The notes beneath the pieces are model-generated. The model did not search any database and was not told where the DNA came from. It saw nothing but the letters and a program-made list of their open reading frames with translations. A DNA stretch of 64,000 nt from the human T2T-CHM13v2.0 reference genome, Homo sapiens. Below, piece by piece: positions 3,828 through 19,150 of the stretch. Both the position numbers and the translations under genes were made by a program. The first letter of the stretch is position 1. The number at the start of each line of letters is the position of its first letter. The stretch lies in assembly GCF_009914755.1 (NCBI RefSeq), contig NC_060943.1; one strand, given 5' to 3'.

Positions 3828-3983
3828 TTTTTTAAACAAAATTATTTATGGCCATCATCTGGACTGAGCATGTGCACTCTTCCCAAACAGACCAAAACAA
3901 AACAAAATGAGTCACTCATGCCAAAAGTGAGCTAATCAAACCTAAAATTTAAGAAAATAGCTAGATCTTAGACCAGTTTTTCT
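3828..3983 (+). mobile_element. 5' part of an ERV1 (MER4-group-like) LTR, truncated
   Basis: taaacaaaattat...ggccatcatctggactgagc...aacagaccaaaac...atgagtcactcatgc directly follows the PPT; breaks off into an Alu fragment after ~155 bp. Confidence 0.55.
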
Positions 3984-4144
3984 TTGGGAGGCGGAGGCGA
4001 GTGGATCACCTGAGGTCAGGAGTTCGAGACCAGTCTGACCAACATGGAGAAACCCCTGTCTCTACTAAAAATACAAAATTAAAGCCAGGCGCGGTGCCTC
4101 ATGCCTGTAATCCCAGCACTTTGGGAGGCTGAGGTGGGTGGATC
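3984..4144 (+). mobile_element. Doubly truncated Alu left-arm fragments joining the LTR to the tandem array
   Basis: tgggaggcggaggcgagtggatcacctgagg...ctactaaaaatacaaaatt, then a second left-arm start cut at ...gggtggatc. Confidence 0.85.
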
Positions 4145-4766
4145 TTATCAACTTTAGCATCCAGGAAGGAGCATAAAAGATTTTAAAAAGAGAGAGAGAG
4201 CAAAGAACACAGAAGAAAAACCACAGCAACTCCCTCTAAGTGCTGTTGAAGCCAACTAAAAGTGGGGCTAGAAAAAAAAACAGAGGAAGAAGCTTGAGTA
4301 GTTTCACGTACTCGGGAGGCCGAATGGAAAGACCACCTGGGCAAGACTGAGGAGATCGAGGCTGCAGGGAATCACAATCGCATCCTTCTCCTGGACCTGA
4401 AGAGTACTGCCACTGGTGACCGCTTTCTGGTCTACCTTAGACATGGCAAGCTGGTGGCCAAGTCCAATGCTCATGGCTGAAGTCTGTCTTAACATAAATA
4501 AACTAACAACTAACAGTAAATATTTAACAATAATAAGTAATAACAAATAATAACAAGACAAATAAGTGAGAGGGAACACAGATAAAAGGTAATTAATGTC
4601 ACAATTAATTGTTGTCTCTCTTTCTCTGTCTCTCTCTTCCTCAATCTCCATGTGTCACACTTTCACACCCAGGCTGGAGTGCACGTGTGTGGTCACAGCT
4701 CATTGCTGATCACTCACCTGCACTCCAGCCAGAATGTGATACAGTAGGAAGACCTAGCTAAAAATA

Positions 4767-4807
<41 letters not shown>

Positions 4808-5903
4808 CAATTTCAGCATGCAGAAAGGAGCATAAGAAAATAAAAGAGAGAGAAAGAGCAAAGAAGAAAGGAAAAAAAAAAAAACCACAGCAACTCACTG
4901 TAAGTACTGCGGAAGAAAACTAAAAGTGGAGCTGGAAAAAAAAAAGAACAGAGGAGGAAAGTCCAAGTATTTTCAGGTACTCTGGAGGCCAAGATGGATG
5001 GGACGACCACCTGTGAAAGACCAGGGAGATTAATATCGCAGTGAATCACAATTGCATCCCTCTGCCTTACCTGAACACTACTACTGGTGAGAGCTATCTG
5101 GTAGACCTTAGAAGTGGCAAGCTGGCAGCCAAGTCCAATGCTCGCAGCCAACATCTGCCTCAAAATTAATAAATAACCGACAGTAAATAATAAGAAAGAA
5201 ATGATAATGGACAATAATATTACCAATAAATAAATAAGTGGGAGTGAACAAAAATAAAAGGTAATTAAAATCACAATTAACTGTATCTCTCTCTGTCTCT
5301 ATTTCTCTGCCTCTCTCTGTCTTTCTGTTTTAGTCTGGGTCTCTGTCTCTCTGTCTTTCTGAATCTCTCTTCCCTGATCTCCGTGTGTCACACTGTCAAA
5401 CCCAGGCTGGAGTGAACGTGTGTGGTCACAGCTCACTGCTGATCATGTACCTGCACTCCAGCCAGGGTGTGACAGACTGAGAAGACCTGGCTAAAAAAAT
5501 ATATGTGTATATATAAAACATCAACTTCAGCATACAGGAAAGAGCGTAAAAAAAAATAAAATAAGAGAGAGAGAGAGAATGAGAGCAAAGAACAAAGAAG
5601 AACAACTATAGCAACTCTCTCTAAGTACTGTGGAAGCAAACTGAAAGTGGGGTTAGAAATAAAACAGAGGAACAATGTCTGAGTAGTCCCAGGTACTCGG
5701 GAGGCCAAGATGGGAAGACCACCCGGGTGAGACTGGGGAGATCCAGGCTGCAGTGAATCGTCATCACATCTCTCTTCTGGACCTCAATGGTACCACTGCC
5801 AGCAAGAGCCAAATGGTCAACCTTAAACATGGCAAGCTGGCGGCCAAGTCCAACACTCGTGGCTGACATCTGTCTAAAATGTATAAACAAATAAACAAAC
5901 AAT

Positions 5904-6198
<295 letters not shown>

Positions 6199-6949
6199 CA
6201 TAAATATTTAACAATAACAAAGAAATAACAAACAATGATAAGACCAATAAATAAATAAGTGGGAGTGAACAAAGGTAAAATGTAATTAATATAACAACTA
6301 ATTGTTGTCTGCCTCCCTGTCTCTCTCTGTTTCTGTCTCTCTGCCACTGTCTGTTTGTGTCTCTGTCTTTCTGTCCCTCTCTCCATCGATCTCCATGTGT
6401 CACACTCTCACACACATGCTGGAGGGCAGGGGCATGGTAACGGCTCACTGCTGATCCAGCACCTACACTCCAGCCAGGGTGTGACAGTGAGAAGACCTAC
6501 CAAAAATCAAATTTAAACATCCACGTCAGCGTTCAGGAAGGAGGGTAACAAAAAAGAAAAAAGAAATGGAGCAAAGAACAAAGAAGAAAGACCACAGCAA
6601 CCCCCTCTAAATACCGTGGAAACAAAATGAAAGTGGGAGTAGAAAAAAAAAAGAAGGAAGATGGCCTGAGTAGTCCAAGGTAAATGGGAGGCTGAGATGG
6701 GAAGTCCTCCGGGTGACATCGGGAAGATCGTTGCTGCATTGAATCATGATGGCATCCCTCTGCTGGGCCTGAACAATACTACTGCCAGTGAGAGCCATCT
6801 GGTCAACCTTATCACCAGCGAGAGCCATCTGTTTGACCTTAGACATGGCAAGCTGGCAACTAATCCAACGCTCGCAGCCAACATCTGTTACAAAATAAAT
6901 ATACAAAAAAACCCAATAGTAGATATTTAACAATAACTAAGAAATAATA

Positions 6950-7352
<403 letters not shown>

Positions 7353-8161
7353 TCACACTCATGCTGCAGTGTGTCAAAAAAAAATCTAAGAGGTCAACTT
7401 CAGCATGCAGAAAGGAACATAGAAAAATAGAGTGAGAAGAACAAAGATTTAACACAACAGCAAGTCACTCTAAGTACTGTGGAAGAAACTGAAAGTGGGG
7501 TTAGAACCAAAACAGAGGAAGTAGGTCCTAGTAGTCCCAGGTACTTGAGAGGCTGAGATGGGAAGACTACCCTTGTGAGACCAAGATCGAGGCCACGGTG
7601 GATCATAATCACATCCCTCTGCTGGACCTGAAACGGTATGGCCACCAGCGAGGCCATCTGGTCGACTTCAGACATGGCAAGCTGGCAGCTAAGCCCAACG
7701 CTCATGGTCAATGTCCATCACAAAATATATAAACAAACCAACAGTAAATATTTAACAATATCAAAGAAATAATAACAACAAACATTAAACACCAGTAAAT
7801 AAATAAGTGGAAGTGAACAAAGGTAAAAAGTAATTAATATTACAATTAAGATCTTCTTCACTCTTTTTCTCTCTTTCTCTCTCTTCATTTGTCACACCCA
7901 GCTGGAGTGTGACCAAAAAATCTAAAAGGTAAACTTTTTAAAAAATTTTTATTATTATTATACTTTAAGTTTTAGGGTACCTGTGCACAATGTGCAGGTT
8001 AGTTACATATGTATACATGTGCCATGCTGGTGTGCTGCACCCATTAACTCGTCATTTAGCATTAGGTGTATCTCCTAATGCTATCCTTTCCCCCTCCTGC
8101 CACCCCACAACAGTGCCCAGAGTGTGATGTTCCCCTTCCTGTGTCCATGTGTTCTCATTAT

Positions 8162-11985
<3,824 letters not shown>

Positions 11986-12048
11986 TATGATGTTAGCTGT
12001 TTATTTTGCTTGTTAGTTGATGTAGTTTCTTCCTAGTCTTGATGGTCT

Positions 12049-13064
12049 TTACATTTTGGCATGATTTTGCAGTGGCTGGTACTGGTTGTTCCTTTCCATG
12101 TTTAGTGCTTCCTTCAGGAGCTCTTTTAGGGCAGGCCTGGTGGTGACAAAATCTCTCAGCATTTGCTTGTCTGTAAAGTGTTTTATTTCTCCTTCACTTG
12201 TGAAGCTTAGTTTGGCTGGATATGAAATTCTGGGTTGAAAATTCTTTTCTTTAAGAATGTTGAATATTGGCCCCCACTCTCTTCTGCGTTGTAGAGTTTC
12301 TGCTGAGAGATCCGCTGTTAGTCTGGTGGGCTTCCCTTTGTGGGTAACCCGACCTCTCTCTCTGGCTGCCCTTAACATTTTTTCCTTCATTTCAACTTTG
12401 GTGAATCTGACAGTTATGTGTCTTAGAGTTGCTCTTCTCAAGGAGTATCTTTGTGGCATCCTCTGTATTTCCTGAATCTGAATGTTGGCCTGCCTTGCTA
12501 GATTGGGGAAGTTCTCCTGGATAATATCCTGCAGGGTGTCTTCCAACTTGGTTCCATTCTCCCCATCACTTTTAGGTACACCAATCAGATGCAGATTTGG
12601 TCTTTTCACATAGTCCCATGTTTCTTGGAGGCTTTGTTCATTTCTTTTTATTCTTCTTTCTCTAAACTTCCCTTCTTGCTTCATTTCATTCATTTCATCT
12701 TCCATCACTGATACCCTTTCTTCCAGTTGAATGCATCGGTTCCTGAGGCTTCTGCATTCTTCACGTAGTTCTCGAGCCTTGGCTTTCAGCTCCATCAGCT
12801 CCTTTAAGCACTTCTCTGTATTGGTTATTCTAGTTATACATTCGTCTAAATTTTTTTCAAAGTTTTCAACTTCTTTGCCTTTGGTTTGAATTTCCTCCTG
12901 TAGCTCGGAGTGGTTTGATTGTCTGAAGCCTTCTTCTCTCAACTTGTCAAAGTCATTCTCTGTCCAGCTTTGTTCCATTGCTGGTGAGGAACTGCTTCCT
13001 TTGGAGGAGGAGAGGTGCTCTGCTTTTTAGAGTTTCCAGTTTTTCTGCTCTGTTTTTTCCCCAT
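12049..13064 (-). pseudogene. L1 ORF1, frameshifted near its 5' end
   Basis: ATG at 13064; span is 1016 nt (not a multiple of 3); 309-aa ORF 12978-12049 ends QPLQNHAKM. Confidence 0.9.
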
Positions 13065-13647
13065 CTTTGTGGTTTTATCTACTTTTGGTCTTTGATGATG
13101 GTGATGTACAGATGGGTTTTTGGTGTGGATGTCCTTTCTGTTTGTTAGTTTTCCTTTTAACAGACAGGACCCTCAGCTGCAGGTCTGTTGGAGTTTGCTA
13201 GAGGTCCACTCCAGACCCTGTTTGCCTGGGTATCAGCAGCGGTGTCTGCAGAACTGTGGATTTTTGTGAACCGCGAATGCTGCTGTCTGATCATTCCTCT
13301 GGAAGTTTTGTCTCAGAGGAGTACCCGGCCGTGTGATGTGTCAGTCTGCCCCTAGTGGGGGGTGCCTCCCAGTTAGGCTGCTCGGGGGTCAGGGGTCAGG
13401 GACCCACTTGAGGAGGCAGTCTGCCCATTCTCAGATCTCCAGCTGTGTGCTGGGAGAACCACTGCTCTCTTCAAAGCTGTCAGACAGGGATATTTAAGTC
13501 TGCAGAGGTTACTGCTGTCTTTTGGTTTGTCTGTGCCCTGCCCCCAGAGGTGAAGCCTACAGAGGCAGGCAGACCTCCTTGAGATGTGGTGGGCTCCACC
13601 TAGTTCGAGCTTCCCAGCTGCTTTGTTTACCTAAGCGAGCCTGGGCA

Positions 13648-13902
13648 ATGGTGGGTGCCCCTCCCCCAGCCTCGCTGCCACCTTGCAGTTTGATCTCAGA
13701 CTGCTGTGCTAGCAATCAGCGAGCCTCCATGGGCGTAGGACCCTCCGAGCCAGGTGCGGGATATAATCTCCTGGTGCGCCGTTTCCTAAGCCCATTGGAA
13801 AAGTGCAGTATTAGGGTGGGAGTGACTCGATTTTCCAGGTGCCGTCTGTCACCCTTTTCCTTGACCAGGAAAGGGAACTCCCTGACCCCTTGTGCTTCCT
13901 GA
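13648..13902 (+). CDS. L1 antisense ORF0-like reading frame, open (84 aa)
   Basis: MVGAPPPASLPPCSLISDCCASNQR...IRVGVTRFSRC within ORF-track 13522-13902 matches the primate L1 ORF0 N-terminus; expression unknown. Confidence 0.6.
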   Translation: MVGAPPPASLPPCSLISDCCASNQRASMGVGPSEPGAGYNLLVRRFLSPLEKCSIRVGVTRFSRCRLSPFSLTRKGNSLTPCAS

Positions 13903-14116
13903 GTGAGGCAATGCCTCGCCCTGCTTTGGCTCACGCATGGTGCACTGCACCCACTGTCCTGTGCCCACTGTCTGGCACTCCCTAGTGAGATGAACCTGGT
14001 ACCTCAGATGGAAATGCAGAAATCACCCGTCTTCTGCGTCGCTCACGCTGGGAGCTGTAGACCGGAGCTCTTCCTATTCGGCCATCTTGGCTCCTCCCAC
14101 CCTAAAAGGTAAACTT

Positions 14117-17100
14117 AAGCGTGTAGAAAGCTACGTAGGAAAAGAGAGAGAGAAAAGAAAAAAAAAAGCAAAAGGACAGCAAGTCATTCTAAGTACTCTG
14201 GAAAAAAACTGAAAGTGGGGTTAGAAAAAAAATAGGAAGAAGGTCTCAGTAGTCCCAGGTACTCAAGGAGGCCAAGATGGGAAGACCACCCGGGTGAGAC
14301 TGGGGAGATGAAGGCTGCAGTGGATCACAGTTGCATCCCTCTGCTGGACCTGAACGGTACTGCCACAGGTGAGAGCCATCTAGTGAAACTTAGACATGGC
14401 AAGCTGGCAGCTAAGTCCAAGGGTCATGGGTGGCATCGGTCTCAAAATTAATAAACAAAAATACCAACAGTAAAAAAAAATTAACAATAACAAAGAAATA
14501 ACAAACAATATTAAGGACCAAAAGTAAATAAGTGGGAGCGAAAAAAAAGGTAATTAATATCACAATTAAGATCTTCTCTCTCTGTCTCTCTCCTTTTGTC
14601 ACATCCAGGCTGAAGTGTGACAAATGAAAAATAACCTAAAAATTCAACTGCAATGTGCATGAAAGACCATAGGAAAATAAAGAAAAGAACAAACAAGAAA
14701 AACAACAGCAAGTCACTCTAAGTACTGTGGAACAAATTGAAAGTGGGGTTAGTCTGTAATATTGTTTGTTATTCTTTCTTTATTATTGTTAAATATTTAC
14801 TGTTGGGTTTTTAAATTTATTTTGAGACTGATATCAGCCTCAAGGCTTGGACTTAGCTTCCAGCTTACCATCTTTAAGGCTGACCAGATGACTCTCGCTA
14901 TGCCATGTCTAAGGTTGACTGGATGGCTCTTGCTGGAGGTAGTACCATTCAAGTCCAGCAGAGGGATGCCATCGTAATTCACTGTGGCCTCATCTCTCTG
15001 GTCCCACCCAGGTGATCTTCCCATCTCAGCCTACCGAGTACCTGGGACTACTCGGACCTTCTTCCTCTGTTTTTTTTTTTTTTTTCCTAAACACACTTCC
15101 AGTTTGTTTCCACAATACTTAGAGTGACTTGTTGTTGTTTATCTTCTTTGTTCTTTTGTCTCTCTATTCTCCTATGCTCCTTCCTGTATGCTGAAGCTAA
15201 TCTTTGTTTTTTTTTTTTTTTTTTGGTCACACTCTAGACTGGGTGTGACAAAGAGACAGAGAGAGAGAGTGTGTGTGTGTGAGAGAGAGAAAATAAATCT
15301 TAATTGTGGTACTAATTACCTTTTACCTTTGTTCACTCCCATTTATTTATTTATTGGTCTTTAATATGGTTTGTTATTTTTTGTTATCGTTATATATTTA
15401 CTGTAGGTTTTTAAATATATTTTGAGACAGATGTCGGTTGCAAGCATTGGACTTAGCTGCCAGCTTTTCATGTCCAAGGTCGACCAGATGGCTCTGGCCT
15501 TGCCATGTCTAAGGTCATCCATATGACTCTTGCCAGTGGCAGTACCGTTCCGGTCCAGCAGGAAGATACGATCATGATTCACTGTGGCCCTTGACCTCCC
15601 TGGTCTTGCCCAGGTGGTCTACCCATCTCTGCCTCTTGAATATCTGGGGCTACTCGAACCTTCTTCCCCTGTTTTTTTCTAACCTCACTTTCAGTTTCTT
15701 TCCACAGTACATAGAGTGATTTGCTGTTGTTTTTCTTCTTTGTTCTTTTCTCCCAGTATTTTCCTACACTCCTTCCTGCATGCCGAGGTTGACGTTTTGT
15801 TGTGTGACTACCTGGATAAGACTGGAAAGATCAAGGCTGCAGTGAATCAGGATTGCATCCCTCTGCTGGAGCTGAATGGGACTGCTGCTGACAAGAGCCA
15901 TATGGTTAACCTTAGACAGCAAAACGTGAGCCATCTGGAGGACCTTAGACATGGCAAGGCAAGAGCCATCTGGTCGACCATAGACATAGCAATCTGGTGG
16001 CTAAGTCCAATGCTTACAGCCAACAGCTGTCTCAAAATAAATAAACAAAAAACCCAACAGTAAATATTTAACAATAACAAAGAAATAATAACAAACAATA
16101 TTAAAGAAAATAAATAAGGAGGAGTGAAAAAGGTAGAGTACAATAAATATCACAATGAAGATTTTCTCCTCTCTCTTTCTCTCCATTTGTGACACCCAGG
16201 CTGGAGTGTGACAAAAAAAAAAAAAGAAAGAAAGAAAAGAAAATAGGTTAACTTCAGCTTACAGGAAGAAGTGTAGGAAAATAGAGAAAAGAACAAAGAA
16301 GAAAAACAATAGCAAGTCACTATAAGTACTGTGGAAATAAACTGAAAGTGGGTTGAGAAAAAAACAAACAAACAAACAAAAACAGAAAAAGAAGTTCTGA
16401 GTAGTCCCGGGTACTTGGGAGGCTGAGATGAGAAGAACACGCAGGTGTGACCAGGGAGATTGAGGCTGCAGTGAATCACGATCACATCCTTCTGCTGGAA
16501 CTGAACAGTACTGCTACCAGTGAGAGCCATGTGGTGAATCTTCGACATGGTAAGGGAAGAGCCATCTGGTTGACCTAATACATGTCAGGGTGAGAACCAT
16601 CTGGTCAACCTTAGACATGGCAAGCTGGCAGCTAAATCCAATGCTCACTGCCAATGTCTCTCAAAATAAATAAACAAAAAAAGTAAATATTTAACAATAA
16701 CAAAGAAATGATAACAATATTAAACACCAATAAATAAATGAGAGTTAACAAAGGTAATTAATATCACAATTAAGATCTTTCTCTCTCTCTCCTCTGTGTG
16801 TGTGTCTCTCCCCTTTGTCACACCCAGGCTAGAGTGTGATAAAAAAATATTTAAAAGGTCAACTTCACTGAGGAGGAAGGAGCATAGGAAAACACAGAAA
16901 AGAGCAAAGAAGAAAAACAACAGCAGGTCACTGTAAGTACTTTGGAAACAAACTATCAGTAGGGTTAGATAAAAAACAGAGGAAGAAGGTTGTTTCAGGT
17001 ACACGGGAGGCCAAGATGGATAGATCACCCAGGTGAGACTGGGAACATTGAGGTCACAGTGAATCACGATCGCATCCCTCTGCTGCACATAAACTGTACT

Positions 17101-17890
17101 GTCACCAGCGAGAGCCATCTGCTCGACCTTATACATAGCAAGGCAAGAGATACCTAGTTGACCTTAGACATGGCAAGCTGGCAGCTAAGTCCAATGCTTG
17201 TGGCTGAGATCTGTCAAAAAATAAATACACAAAAAACAACAGTAAATATTTAACAATAAAGAAATAGTAACATACAATATTATTGACCAATAAATAAGTG
17301 GAAGTGAACAATAATAAAAGGTAATTAATATCACAATTAAGATCTCTTTTCTCTTTCTCCCTGTATGTCACACCCAGGCTACAGTGTGATAAAAAAATCT
17401 AAAAGTCAACCTCAGTGTGCAGGAAGGAGTGTAGGAAAATACTGAGAGAAAAGAACAAAGAAGAAAAACAACAGCAAATCACTCTATGTACTGTGGAAAG
17501 AAACTGAAAATGGGGTTGGAAAAAACAGAGGAAGAAGGTCCGAGTAGTCCCAGGTATTCAAGGGGCCGAGATGGGTTGACCACCTGGGCAAGACCGGGGA
17601 AGTGAAGGCCAGAGTGAATCACCATTGTATCCTCCTGCTGGACCTGAACGGTACTGCCACTGGTGAAAATCATATGGACGATCTTAGACATGGCAAGGCG
17701 AGAGCCATCTGGTCAACCTTAGACATGGAAAGCTGGAGGCTAAGTCCAACGCTTGCGACTGACATCTGTCTCAAAATAAATTTAAAAACCTACAGTAAAT
17801 ACATAACAACAAAAAAAATTAAAGACCAATAAATAAATAAATGGGAGTGAACAAAGGTAAAAGGTAATTAGTGTCAAAATTAACATTTAT

Positions 17891-17925
<35 letters not shown>

Positions 17926-19150
17926 CTGTCTCTTTGTCACACCCAGTCTGGAGTGTGACCAAAAAAAACAAACCAAAAGGTCAGCTTCAGCGTACAGGAA
18001 GGAGCATAGGAGAATAGAAAGAAAAAAGAACAAAGAAGATAAACAACAACAAGTCACTCTTAAGTATTGTGGAAACAAACTGGAAGTGTGTTTAGGAAAA
18101 AAACAGAGGAAGAAGGTCCGAGTAGTCCCAGGTACTGGTAGGCTGAGATGGGAAGATCACCTGGGTGGAACCAGGGAGATCAAGGACGCAGAGATTCACA
18201 ATCGCATCCCTCTGCTGGACCTGAATGGTACTACCTCCAGCGACAGCCATCCAGTCGACCTTAGATATGGCAAAGCGAGAGTCATCTGGTCAGCCTTAAA
18301 GATGGTAAGCTGGAAGCTAAGTCCGAGGCTCGAGGCCGATATCAGTCTCAAAATAAATAAACAAAAAAACCCAACAGTAAATATTTAACAATAACAAAGA
18401 ATAACAACCAATATTACAGACCAATAAAGTGGGAGTGAACAATGGTATAAGGTAATTAATATCACAATTGAGATCTTCTCCTTTCCTCTCTCTTTTTTCT
18501 CTCTCTCTCTCTCTTTTTTCCATTTGTCACACCGAGGCTGGAGTGTGACAAAAAATAAAATCTAAAACTTCAATTTCAATGTCCAGGAAGGAGCTAAGGA
18601 AAATAGAGAAAAGAACAAAGAAGAGAAACAACAACAAATCACTCTAAGTACTATGGAAACAATCTGAAAGTGGGGTTAGAGAACAAACAGAAGAAGAAAA
18701 TGCGAGTACTCCCACGTACTACTCGGAAGGCCAAGATGGGTAGACCACCTGGGCAAGACCGGGGAGATGGAGGCCACAGTGAATCACGATTGCATCCCTC
18801 TGCTGGACCTGTGTGGTACTACCGCCGGCAAGAGCCACCTGGTCGACTTTAGACAATGCAAGCTGTTGGCTAAGTCCAACACTTGCGACCAACATCTGTC
18901 TCAAAATAAATTTAAACACCAACAGTGAATATATAACAATAACAAAAAATAGCAAACAGTATGAAAGACCAATAAATAAATGAGTGAACAAAGGTAAAAG
19001 ATAATTAATATTACAATTAAGACCTTCTCCCCTTACTCTCATTTTTTCTCTCTCTCTCTTTCTCTCCCTGTTTGTCACACTCAGGCTCGAGTGTGACAAA
19101 AAAATAAACCAAAAGGTCAACTTCAGCATGCAGGATGGAGCATAAAAGAA
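14117..19150 (-). repeat. Same tandem array, right part (~8 units plus partials), with an inverted block at 14753-15798
   Basis: Cores at ~14249, 16400, 16995, 17542, 18121 and 18705 plus a partial unit from 15805; reverse-orientation cores at ~15045 and ~15645. Confidence 0.95.
15477..15489 (+). terminator. Intact Sal-box-like motif AGGTCGACCAGAT
   Basis: Contains GGTCGACCAG, shared with the human (GGGTCGACCAG) and mouse (AGGTCGACCAG...) TTF-I terminator cores; second intact copy on the - strand at 15970-15979. Function untested. Confidence 0.45.

What the first reader, a model, noticed from the sequence alone, without database searches (positions are those of the whole stretch)
5670..5900. 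The array unit is built on an Alu right arm with the Sal module spliced into its 3' end
Seen: each unit has gtagtcccaggtactcgggaggccaagatgggaagaccac...gagatcgaggctgcagtgaatcacgatcgc, then the Sal module, then ctgtctcaaaataaataaa. Known: an AluJ/FRAM arm reads gtagtcccagctactcgggaggctgagg...gaggtcgaggctgcagtgagccgtgatcgc...ctgtctcaaaa. Inference: an Alu arm captured a terminator motif and the hybrid was then amplified. If the rDNA homology holds, the primate R-repeat would itself descend from an Alu, later obscured by GC drift, and this array would preserve the intermediate.
Basis: partly seen in the sequence, partly recalled or inferred. Interest (0 to 1): 0.75.

Follow-up and report, generated by a model that had tools for sequence, protein, structure and literature searches.

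The report
Decayed rDNA spacer repeat holding Alu
This chromosome 19 tandem repeat is an old, decayed copy of the ribosomal-DNA spacer next to the rRNA terminators, and it carries a real fragment of an ancient Alu element that the present ribosomal spacer repeat probably still holds in blurred form.

Summary
The Alu resemblance is real. The unit consensus matches Alu right-arm positions about 157-248 (E 1e-13 with a J-type profile, E 2e-11 with younger Alus). 36 of 40 units match at E<=0.01, and reversed controls give nothing.

The rDNA homology also holds. It runs on the opposite strand and covers nearly the whole unit:
- The first half aligns collinearly to the R repeat (E 1.6e-7 and 2e-7).
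- The second half aligns to spacer about 0.7 kb beyond the last R repeat (E 1.5e-9).

The segment shared with rDNA runs about 30 nt into the Alu-like stretch (22 of 32 identical). There the R repeat is itself weakly Alu-like (26 of 36; 8 of 1000 shuffles reach this).

The unit is therefore not built on an Alu. It is a reversed, permuted copy of rDNA spacer that contains an Alu fragment cut off near position 248, next to a Sal-box element. The closing 'ctgtctcaaa' has no significant Alu match and sits where the homology breaks inside the second Sal box.

The 'Sal module' is a 35-bp minisatellite unit found at other loci and is related to HSAT4. The Sal boxes are mostly decayed, so the array is probably inert satellite DNA.

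The parts
4130..7926 (+). Array block A: five units of the chr19 satellite (long type, about 660-720 bp before two later Alu insertions)
   Evidence: Direct-repeat spacings of 664-721, and 986-1021 where an Alu is inserted. Unit-profile hits.
7927..14101 (.). Later insertion that splits the array. The hub's table lists it as masked repeat. I did not classify it.
   Evidence: Unit homology stops at 7926 and resumes at about 14102. Masked stretches are in the hub's table.
14102..18910 (.). Array block B: short-type units of about 550-590 bp, with inverted units at 14820-15799
   Evidence: nhmmer hits on both strands.
5511..5600 (-). Unit start and GA/A-rich run. It lies where the R repeat has its T/CT microsatellite (low complexity).
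   Evidence: blastn matches on the minus strand to the R microsatellite. Low complexity, so weak evidence.
5601..5682 (-). Part homologous to the R repeat stretch between its T-run and its Alu-like piece
   Evidence: The unit profile hits 4 of 4 R repeats on the minus strand, E 1.6e-7 to 6.2e-5. Without the Alu part the best E is 3.5e-4.
5683..5779 (+). Fragment of an old Alu right arm (Alu about 157-248), antisense to the rRNA direction of the homologous rDNA
   Evidence: E 1.2e-13 (J-type profile) and 2.2e-11 (window Alus) for the consensus. 36 of 40 units at E<=0.01.
5780..5838 (-). 'Sal module': one unit of a 35-bp minisatellite. The decayed Sal-box core is at 5814-5822.
   Evidence: blastn of the consensus against R: 56 of 75 identical, E 2e-7. 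The 35-bp period is shown at 15891-15992 and at other loci.
5839..5872 (-). Continuation of R homology (the GGCTAAGTCC motif up to the CAGCTG that opens Sal box 2). Homology to R ends here.
5873..5905 (+). Tail-like A-rich stretch ('ctgtct.aaa...'). Its origin is unresolved.
   Evidence: No significant Alu-profile match.
5906..6194 (-). Younger full-length Alu inserted into unit 3
   Evidence: Rfam SRP match and Alu profile match, E 1.2e-52.
6246..6312 (-). Core of the unit's second half, homologous to rDNA spacer about 0.7 kb beyond the last R repeat
   Evidence: Second-half profiles hit my rDNA coordinates 17416-17512 on the minus strand, E 4e-5 and 1.5e-9.
6391..6510 (.). Palindrome made of an antisense and a sense piece of an Alu 3' region (long-type units only)
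   Evidence: Alu profile hits on both strands, model 217-286. A weak miRNA-like hairpin hit in unit 1.
15891..15992 (-). Three tandem copies of the 35-bp Sal module, with one exact GGTCGACCAG at 15970-15979
   Evidence: TRF and motif search.

Best explanation
The array is pericentromeric satellite DNA. Its unit is an ancient copy of the rDNA intergenic spacer just downstream of 28S. It reads on the opposite strand and is circularly permuted. It comprises most of one R (terminator) repeat plus spacer that today lies about 0.7 kb beyond the last R repeat.

Shown:
- The unit holds a genuine fragment of an old, J-type-like Alu right arm (Alu about 157-248). In rDNA terms it lies antisense to rRNA transcription, between the T-run and the Sal boxes.
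- The R repeat aligns with the unit through at least the first ~30 nt of that fragment.
- The 'Sal module' is homologous to the R repeat's Sal-box element and its GGCTAAGTCC flank. It is also the unit of a 35-bp minisatellite.

Inferred:
- An Alu landed in, or next to, the terminator region of an early primate's rDNA spacer and lost its 3' end.
- The stretch was copied to chr19, with a breakpoint inside Sal box 2.
- It was amplified there by unequal exchange at about the age of J-type Alus, and has since decayed by CpG loss. The rDNA copy drifted towards G+C under homogenisation.
- Today the array most likely has no sequence-specific function, because nearly all its Sal boxes are mutated.
For: Alu:
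- Consensus against the J-type profile: 37.8 bits, E 1.2e-13. Against the window's Alus: 30.4 bits, E 2.2e-11.
- 36 of 40 units at E<=0.01; reversed control empty.
- The unit profile also finds the true Alus of the rDNA spacer at model positions about 140-236.

rDNA homology:
- Unit profile against a 50-kb rDNA unit: 22 hits at E<=1e-3. Four of them are the R repeats, all on the minus strand in the same register (E 1.6e-7, 1.5e-6, 6.2e-5, 6.2e-5). Reversed rDNA gives 0 hits at E<=1e-3 (best 1.6).
- Consensus against R by blastn: 56 of 75 identical, E 2e-7, over the Sal box, GGCTAAGTCC and CAGCTG.
- The MAFFT alignment is collinear, 194 of 327 columns identical.
- The stretch between the two anchors scores -1.0 against -11.2 +/- 4.0 for shuffles; 18 of 1000 shuffles reach it.
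- Second half against rDNA 17416-17512, minus strand: E 4e-5 and 1.5e-9.

Alu in the common ancestor:
- 22 of 32 bases identical between unit and R inside the Alu-like start; P about 7e-6.
- Adding that stretch raises the R hit from 16.0 to 24.4 bits.
- R against the J-type consensus directly: 26 of 36 identical, in the same register and orientation. 8 of 1000 shuffles and 1 of 306 other rDNA pieces reach this.
- 8 states are shared by unit and R against Alu. There are 18 R-only and 3 unit-only changes.

Age and decay:
- Mean K2P of units to their consensus is 0.17, against 0.19 for the 14 J-type Alus.
- CpG observed/expected is 0.26-0.33 in the arrays against 1.12 in R.
- The window has 2 exact GGTCGACCAG cores, 10 with one mismatch, and 0 exact human 11-mers.
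Against: - A profile of the unit's Alu-like part alone does not find the R repeats. E is 5.6-7.1 in the 3.15-kb R region, and no hit falls inside R in the 50-kb search.
- Alu profiles against R give only E 0.03-0.15.
- At columns where unit and Alu differ, R agrees with Alu in only 4 of 27, no better than chance. R's Alu signal is therefore not independent of the unit.
- Through the unit-anchored alignment, R equals Alu at 39 of 68 columns. 57 of 2000 shuffles and 6 of 272 GC-rich rDNA pieces reach this, so support is only moderate.
- The Sal part scores weakly with the profile (E 0.05-0.09) and is strong only with the consensus.
- The 5' part alone scores E 0.12.
- The direction rDNA to chr19 is inferred, not shown. 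A piece of a tandem array inserted into rDNA would give the same collinearity.
- A solitary relative on chr10 has a fuller J-type Alu with its own 'ccctgtctcaaaa' tail exactly where the units have the Alu fragment plus Sal module.
- No rDNA from another primate could be examined.
Confidence: 0.68

Rival explanations
1. A free Alu right arm took up a terminator-bearing module inside its 3' part, so that the Alu's own end and A-tail follow the module. This hybrid was amplified, and the rDNA R repeat descends from it (chr19-type unit first, rDNA second).
For: - The order Alu body, Sal module, 'ctgtctcaaa' plus a long A-rich stretch is present in the units.
- The chr10 solitary copy has an uninterrupted J-type Alu ending in 'ccctgtctcaaaataaataaac', followed by the same A-rich sequence as the units.
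- The collinearity of the permuted unit with rDNA would also arise if about 1.3 units of such an array had entered the spacer.
Against: - The tail motif has no significant Alu match (E 0.78, or no hit).
- Up to CATCTG the sequence before it aligns to R's Sal box 2 region, within the 56-of-75 blastn match. The 'ctg' therefore belongs to a truncated Sal box.
- Sal boxes are needed in rDNA and, from recalled knowledge, exist in mouse. The module must have come from rDNA anyway.
- The chr10 copy carries the array's own unit junction, so it derives from the array. It is explained by a later Alu insertion into the A-rich stretch with loss of upstream sequence (inference).
Confidence: 0.15
2. The Alu fragment belongs to the chr19 lineage only. 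It was inserted or converted after that lineage separated from rDNA. The R repeat's resemblance to Alu at that place is chance.
For: - The Alu-like part alone does not retrieve R.
- Alu profiles against R are not significant on their own (E 0.03-0.15).
- R agrees with Alu at only 4 of 27 columns where the unit differs from Alu.
Against: - The unit-R alignment runs without a gap from the non-Alu part into the Alu-like start. 22 of 32 bases are identical (P about 7e-6) and the score rises by 8 bits.
- R's own best local match to Alu lies in the same register and orientation. 8 of 1000 shuffles and 1 of 306 other rDNA pieces reach it.
- Unit and R share 8 substitutions against Alu.
Confidence: 0.13
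3. The likeness to rDNA is chance or low complexity. The array is an unrelated composite of an Alu piece and an HSAT4-like 35-bp monomer.
For: - The first blastn found only inserted Alus and TC microsatellite.
- Several sub-blocks are weak on their own (E 0.05-0.12).
- The 35-bp module occurs at loci with no other unit sequence.
Against: - Three separate collinear blocks lie on one strand: E 1.6e-7, 2e-7 and 1.5e-9.
- The four R repeats are the top non-Alu hits in 50 kb, and the reversed decoy is empty.
- Homology extends beyond the 35-mer into GGCTAAGTCC and the next Sal box.
Confidence: 0.03

Closest known systems
R repeat of the human rDNA intergenic spacer (the terminator repeat; about 680-830 bp, typically three copies, carrying Sal boxes bound by TTF-I). 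Source: passages of PMC8559705 seen. The consensus GGGTCGACCAG is quoted in a passage of PMC6281188 seen.
   Same: Collinear homology runs over the stretch from the pyrimidine run, through the Alu-like piece, to Sal box 3 and the start of Sal box 2. Unit size is similar, and a purine/pyrimidine microsatellite sits at the same end.
   Different: - It lies on chr19 next to the centromere, not in a nucleolus organiser.
- It holds one Sal module instead of three Sal boxes.
- About 180-290 bp of each unit come from spacer further downstream.
- CpG o/e is 0.3 against 1.12, and units differ by K2P 0.30.
- The Sal boxes are mostly mutated.
Degraded rDNA-derived fragments scattered in the human genome, mostly near centromeres (Robicheau et al. 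2017, PMC5381670; abstract and passages seen).
   Same: It is rDNA spacer sequence relocated to a pericentromeric region and decaying there.
   Different: That survey used megablast-level similarity and removed Alus and simple repeats from its probe. The passages found do not mention chromosome 19 or the R repeat (0 occurrences of either term). Here the copy is about 60-75% identical to rDNA, tandemly amplified into four arrays, and informative about the ancestor of the R repeat.
Alu right monomer of old type (AluJ / free right Alu monomer). The names are recalled. The reference here was a consensus of 14 genome copies carrying a 17-nt signature.
   Same: About 80% identity over Alu positions 157-248, in right-arm register. 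It scores better against the old type than against the window's mostly younger Alus.
   Different: No left arm, no first 20 nt of the right arm, no demonstrable 3' end or A-tail, and no 7SL-like fold by Rfam.
HSAT4, a 35-bp satellite at 19q12, 16p11, Xp11 and 1q42 (Warburton et al. 2008, PMC2588610; passages seen).
   Same: Same 35-bp period. It is physically adjacent on 19q12. 22 of 35 bases are identical in phase and on the same strand, and 4 of 5000 shuffles reach this.
   Different: The Sal-type 35-mer has its own distribution: chr19 arrays, chr13 at 18.44 Mb, chrX at 140.37 Mb, chr10 and chr12. It is closer to the R repeat's Sal element than HSAT4 is (20 of 33 against 16 of 33, by hand alignment, not by a tool). 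I identified the neighbouring satellite as HSAT4 from its period and genomic distribution, not from a reference sequence.

Membership tests
Alu (right monomer, old J-type-like) | Significant similarity to an Alu profile | tested here: met
   E 2.2e-11 and 1.2e-13 for the unit consensus. 36 of 40 units at E<=0.01. Reversed control empty.
Alu (right monomer, old J-type-like) | Right-arm rather than left-arm register | tested here: met
   Both profiles align only model positions 157-248.
Alu (right monomer, old J-type-like) | Old-subfamily states in the region of the 17-nt signature | tested here: met
   37.8 bits against 30.4 bits, and local score 42.5 against 33.5. Caveat: the 14 reference copies were chosen for an intact signature.
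Alu (right monomer, old J-type-like) | Own 3' end and A-tail contiguous with the body | tested here: not met
   The alignment ends at about 248. The tail-like motif, about 95-110 nt later, gives E 0.78 or no hit.
Alu (right monomer, old J-type-like) | Target-site duplications | not tested
   The A-rich flanks are too low in complexity. No test was run.
Alu (right monomer, old J-type-like) | 7SL-like structure (Rfam Metazoa_SRP) | tested here: not met
   At E<=1, all 5 SRP matches among the 13 Rfam matches in 3900-8000 fall on true Alus. None falls on the array's Alu-like pieces.
rDNA R repeat | Collinear sequence homology to the R repeat | tested here: met
   4 of 4 R repeats hit, E 1.6e-7 to 6.2e-5. 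blastn 56 of 75, E 2e-7. MAFFT 194 of 327.
rDNA R repeat | Sal box GGGTCGACCAG | tested here: inconclusive
   The consensus keeps the 10-nt core GGTCGACCAG, which is 10 of 11 positions of the human box. The window has 2 exact cores, 10 with one mismatch, and 0 exact 11-mers.
rDNA R repeat | Position downstream of 28S in a nucleolus organiser, homogenised and CpG-rich | tested here: not met
   The arrays lie at chr19 23.4-24.1 and 30.3 Mb. CpG o/e is 0.26-0.33 against 1.12, and K2P between units is 0.30.
HSAT4 (35-bp satellite) | 35-bp tandem period | tested here: inconclusive
   The module is single-copy in the finding's unit. It is tandem (3 to 66 copies) at 15891-15992 and at other loci.
HSAT4 (35-bp satellite) | Monomer sequence and genomic distribution of HSAT4 | tested here: not met
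   Only 22 of 35 bases identical to the neighbouring HSAT4-type monomer. The distribution differs.

The most novel reading that the evidence does not exclude
The terminator and replication-fork-barrier repeat of primate rDNA (the R repeat) was assembled around an antisense fragment of an early Alu at about the time of the J-type Alus. That same terminator module then seeded two kinds of satellite DNA outside the nucleolus organisers. One is the ~0.6-kb chr19 pericentromeric arrays. The other, by amplification of its Sal-box element, is a family of 35-bp satellites that includes HSAT4. On this reading the chr19 consensus is a usable fossil of the ancestral R repeat.
Probability: 0.35. Interest if true: 0.7.

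Novelty: new variant of a known kind. Interest (0 to 1): 0.55.

Why it matters
- It gives a concrete origin for a set of chr19 pericentromeric arrays.
- It probably gives an origin for a dispersed 35-bp satellite family: the Pol I terminator region of rDNA.
- It offers a slowly evolving outside copy from which the ancestral state of the fast-evolving R repeat can be read. One result is that a transposon fragment sits inside that functional module.
- It provides sites with a few intact Sal boxes outside rDNA (9 and 11 exact cores in the stretches fetched at 24.14 and 30.30 Mb). These could be tested for TTF-I binding on a complete assembly.
- Chromosome 19's pericentromere is reported to associate with nucleoli (passage of PMC2845662). 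Whether rDNA-derived repeats contribute to this is pure speculation here.
- I found nothing in print on any of these points in five full-text searches or in the passages read. Curated repeat libraries could not be consulted, and neither could two supplements. These were the Alu table of PMC6281188 (old .xls) and the tables of the T2T repeat preprint (closed). Any of them may already name these units.

Tried and rejected
- Rfam scan of 3900-8000: only true Alus match the SRP model.
- First blastn of the array against rDNA, unmasked: swamped by inserted Alus and TC microsatellite.
- Alu profiles directly against the R region: E 0.03-0.15, not significant alone.
- Profile of the Alu-like part alone (unit columns 172-267, 172-290, 204-290) against R: nothing significant.
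- Test for columns where R equals Alu but not the unit: 4 of 27, no excess.
- Rest of the unit (tail, second half, unit start) against the rest of the R repeat (Sal box 2 to Sal box 1): no similarity. 137 of 500 shuffles reach the global score and 445 of 500 the local score.
- Second-half hits at rDNA 23213 and 27644 are A-rich and TC-rich low complexity, and were discarded.
- J-type Alus in the window: none carries the 17-nt signature. The only 2 matches have 2 mismatches each and read as a different variant, so copies were taken from the genome.
- Three small fetches meant to sample HSAT4 returned alpha satellite instead. The distribution search replaced them.
- Supplement search of PMC6281188: no Alu coordinates readable.
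- Reading the chr10 solitary copy as a pre-module ancestor: considered, but thought less likely than a later Alu insertion, because that copy already contains the array's unit junction. Left unresolved.
- No unit phylogeny was built. Relative age rests on K2P to the consensus compared with J-type Alus.

Full report
WHAT IS THERE. The finding lies in unit 3 of a tandem array. The array occupies window 4130-7926. A long insertion at 7927-14101 interrupts it. It continues at 14102-18910, with two to three inverted units at 14820-15799. A genome search with 5510-5905 found 53 matches at E<=0.001. Of these, 48 lie on chr19 in four places: 23.415-23.423 Mb, the window, 24.142-24.147 Mb, and 30.299-30.309 Mb on the other side of the centromere. 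The other 5 are solitary fragments on chr3, 5, 6, 10 and X. None lies in the rDNA arrays. nhmmer found 66 pieces in the four chr19 stretches, 40 of them spanning the Alu-like part. I recovered 34 'second halves' of units. Four hold later insertions, 25 are short (about 160-230 nt, giving units of about 560 bp) and 5 are long (260-340 nt). The long ones occur only in window block A and its near-copy at 23.416 Mb.

THE ALU-LIKE STRETCH IS REAL. I built a profile from the 20 Alus that nhmmer finds in the window. It matches the unit consensus at 172-262, equal to Alu 157-242 (30.4 bits, E 2.2e-11). To get an old-type reference without typing one, I located a 17-nt signature in the genome. It has 4,534 + 4,545 matches, and the reversed control has 0. 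I fetched 14 copies and built a second profile. That profile gives 37.8 bits, E 1.2e-13, Alu 158-248. 36 of 40 units have such a hit at E<=0.01, 31 of 40 at E<=1e-3, and 2 of 40 have none. The reversed consensus gives nothing. The register is that of the right arm only. The Rfam SRP model does not see the fragment. The alignment ends near Alu 248. The closing 'ctgtctcaaa' motif, about 95-110 nt further on, has no significant Alu match (E 0.78 to the left-arm end, or no hit).

THE rDNA HOMOLOGY HOLDS, ON THE OTHER STRAND. I located 5.8S genes with Rfam RF00002 and fetched one 50-kb rDNA unit. Its four R repeats carry GGGTCGACCAG on the rRNA strand.
- The unit profile gives 22 hits at E<=1e-3 in this 50 kb. 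Four are the R repeats, all on the minus strand and in one register (E 1.6e-7, 1.5e-6, 6.2e-5, 6.2e-5). Reversed rDNA gives none.
- The consensus also matches R by blastn at 56 of 75 (E 2e-7), over the Sal box, a GGCTAAGTCC motif and the CAGCTG that opens the next Sal box.
- MAFFT aligns the two collinearly, with 194 of 327 columns identical.
- The stretch between the two anchors is weakly but measurably similar: 18 of 1000 shuffles reach its score.
- Block by block the signal is uneven. The 5' part alone gives E 0.12. With the A-run it gives 3.5e-4. The Sal part by profile gives 0.05-0.09.
- The second half of the unit matches rDNA 17416-17512, again on the minus strand (E 4e-5 and 1.5e-9). 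That is about 0.7 kb beyond the last R repeat.
- Two other hits of that profile are low complexity. The remainder of the R repeat (Sal box 2 to Sal box 1) has no counterpart in the unit.

Read in permuted order, the unit is therefore collinear with reverse-strand spacer from about 17.5 kb back to Sal box 2 of the last R repeat, with parts missing.

DOES THE SHARED SEGMENT OVERLAP THE ALU? Yes, but only its start is secure. The unit-R alignment runs without a gap from the non-Alu part into the first ~30 nt of the Alu-like stretch. 22 of 32 bases are identical there, with binomial P about 7e-6 at a 0.30 chance rate. That stretch raises the score from 16.0 to 24.4 bits. R's own best local match to the J-type consensus is in the same place and orientation: 26 of 36 identical. 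8 of 1000 shuffles and 1 of 306 other rDNA pieces reach this.

In the three-way comparison of the Alu part (68 columns):
- 36 columns agree in all three.
- 18 are changes in R only.
- 8 are shared by unit and R against Alu.
- 3 are changes in the unit only.
- 3 differ throughout.
The R-only changes lean to G+C, 8 against 3.

Several results count against a strong claim. A profile of the Alu-like part alone does not find R (E 5.6-7.1). Alu profiles against R give E 0.03-0.15. R agrees with Alu at only 4 of 27 columns where the unit does not. The unit-anchored count of R = Alu (39 of 68) is reached by 57 of 2000 shuffles. I conclude that the common ancestor of unit and R repeat very probably held at least the first third of this Alu fragment. 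Beyond that, R is either too diverged or has lost it.

WHAT THE 'SAL MODULE' IS. It is one unit of a 35-bp minisatellite. Copy numbers are:
- three at 15891-15992;
- 51 at chr19:30.30 Mb;
- 22, 9 and 3 on chr13;
- 66 on Xq27;
- 3.5 on chr10, between mariner-like inverted ends;
- 2.2 on chr12, behind an Alu tail.
Next to the 19q12 array lies another 35-bp satellite. Its genomic distribution (19q12, chr16 at 38.4 Mb, chr1 at 227.7 Mb, chrX at 57.4 Mb) is that described for HSAT4 (passages of PMC2588610). The two 35-mers share 22 of 35 bases in phase, and 4 of 5000 shuffles reach this.

HISTORY AND DIRECTION (INFERRED). The unit's homology to R stops inside Sal box 2, while rDNA has the box entire. 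Sal boxes are required in rDNA and, from recalled knowledge, occur in mouse. The simpler order is therefore: an Alu into the terminator region, then a spacer copy to chr19, then amplification. Units differ from their consensus by K2P 0.17, against 0.19 for J-type Alus, which points to an early primate age. The arrays have lost their CpGs (o/e about 0.3 against 1.12). The window keeps only 2 exact Sal-box cores. The reverse direction is not excluded. The chr10 solitary copy has a fuller Alu in place of the fragment plus module and remains ambiguous.

LITERATURE. The passages I read describe the R repeat and its Sal boxes (PMC8559705), Alus and Sal boxes of the primate spacer (PMC6281188), and transposon remnants in spacers (PMC10319768). 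They also cover scattered rDNA fragments (PMC5381670), HSAT4 (PMC2588610), nucleolus-associated chr19 (PMC2845662) and T2T repeat annotation (preprint 10.1101/2021.07.12.451456). None states that the R repeat holds an Alu fragment or that chr19 arrays or HSAT4 derive from the terminator region. Five full-text searches gave nothing more. Repeat libraries and some supplements could not be consulted.

VERDICT. It is wrong about the architecture: this is a spacer copy that contains an Alu fragment, not an Alu that captured a terminator. It is unproven about the Alu tail.

Noticed in passing
L049 (chr13:18441293-18445012), L050 (chrX:140366375-140368678), L051 (chr10:32988971-32989091), L052 (chr12:46905066-46905141): The 35-bp Sal-type unit forms arrays of its own away from chr19. 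On chr13 there are 22, 9 and 3 copies, flanked by sequence that looked to me like LINE-1 (recognised by eye, not tested). On Xq27 there are 66 copies in unique sequence. On chr10, 3.5 copies sit exactly between mariner-like inverted ends (ttaggttggtgca...tgcaccaacctaa). On chr12, 2.2 copies sit between an Alu's A-tail and a (TA)n run.
   Followed up: partly
L047 1-3314 (chr19:30296001-30299314), next to the Sal-type 35-mer array at L047 3986-5759: A second 35-bp satellite adjoins the Sal-type array. Its distribution (19q12, chr16 at 38.4 Mb, chr1 at 227.7 Mb, chrX at 57.4 Mb) fits HSAT4 as described in print. It shares 22 of 35 bases in phase with the Sal-type unit and contains GGGTCGCCCAG, one base from the human Sal box. 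HSAT4 may therefore descend from the rDNA terminator element.
   Followed up: partly
L041, reverse strand, 1453-2115 (chr10, about 50.0657-50.0663 Mb): This solitary relative of the unit has a 5'-truncated J-type Alu (positions 73-207 plus end and tail, with a (CA)n run inside) where the units have the Alu fragment plus Sal module. It also has a nearly whole Alu right arm (155-260) where long units have a palindrome. It is either an early form or the result of a later Alu insertion with deletion.
   Followed up: partly
window 4130-7400 and chr19:23416400-23420100 (L044): Window block A and the array 146 kb upstream are near-copies. Unit 3 is 89% identical to its counterpart, and the same antisense Alu follows both. 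This points to a segmental duplication of an already interrupted array.
   Followed up: partly
window 14820-15799 and 15757-16029: Inverted units create a head-to-head junction inside block B. The annotated exon of the predicted lncRNA LOC105372335 (15757-16029) lies on array sequence, including the triple 35-mer.
   Followed up: no
L035/L036, my rDNA coordinates 17264-17370 (chr13:5791264-5791370): The rDNA spacer holds an antisense and a sense Alu fragment back to back, between the two regions that match the unit. Long-type units have a similar Alu palindrome at the corresponding place (window 4650-4760, 5385-5490, 6391-6500). The match is consistent but not shown to be significant.
   Followed up: partly
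window 4671-4731: A weak Rfam match to a miRNA hairpin family (mir-9447, E 0.0033, far below its gathering score) reflects the Alu-derived palindrome of the long units. It is not a miRNA gene.
   Followed up: no
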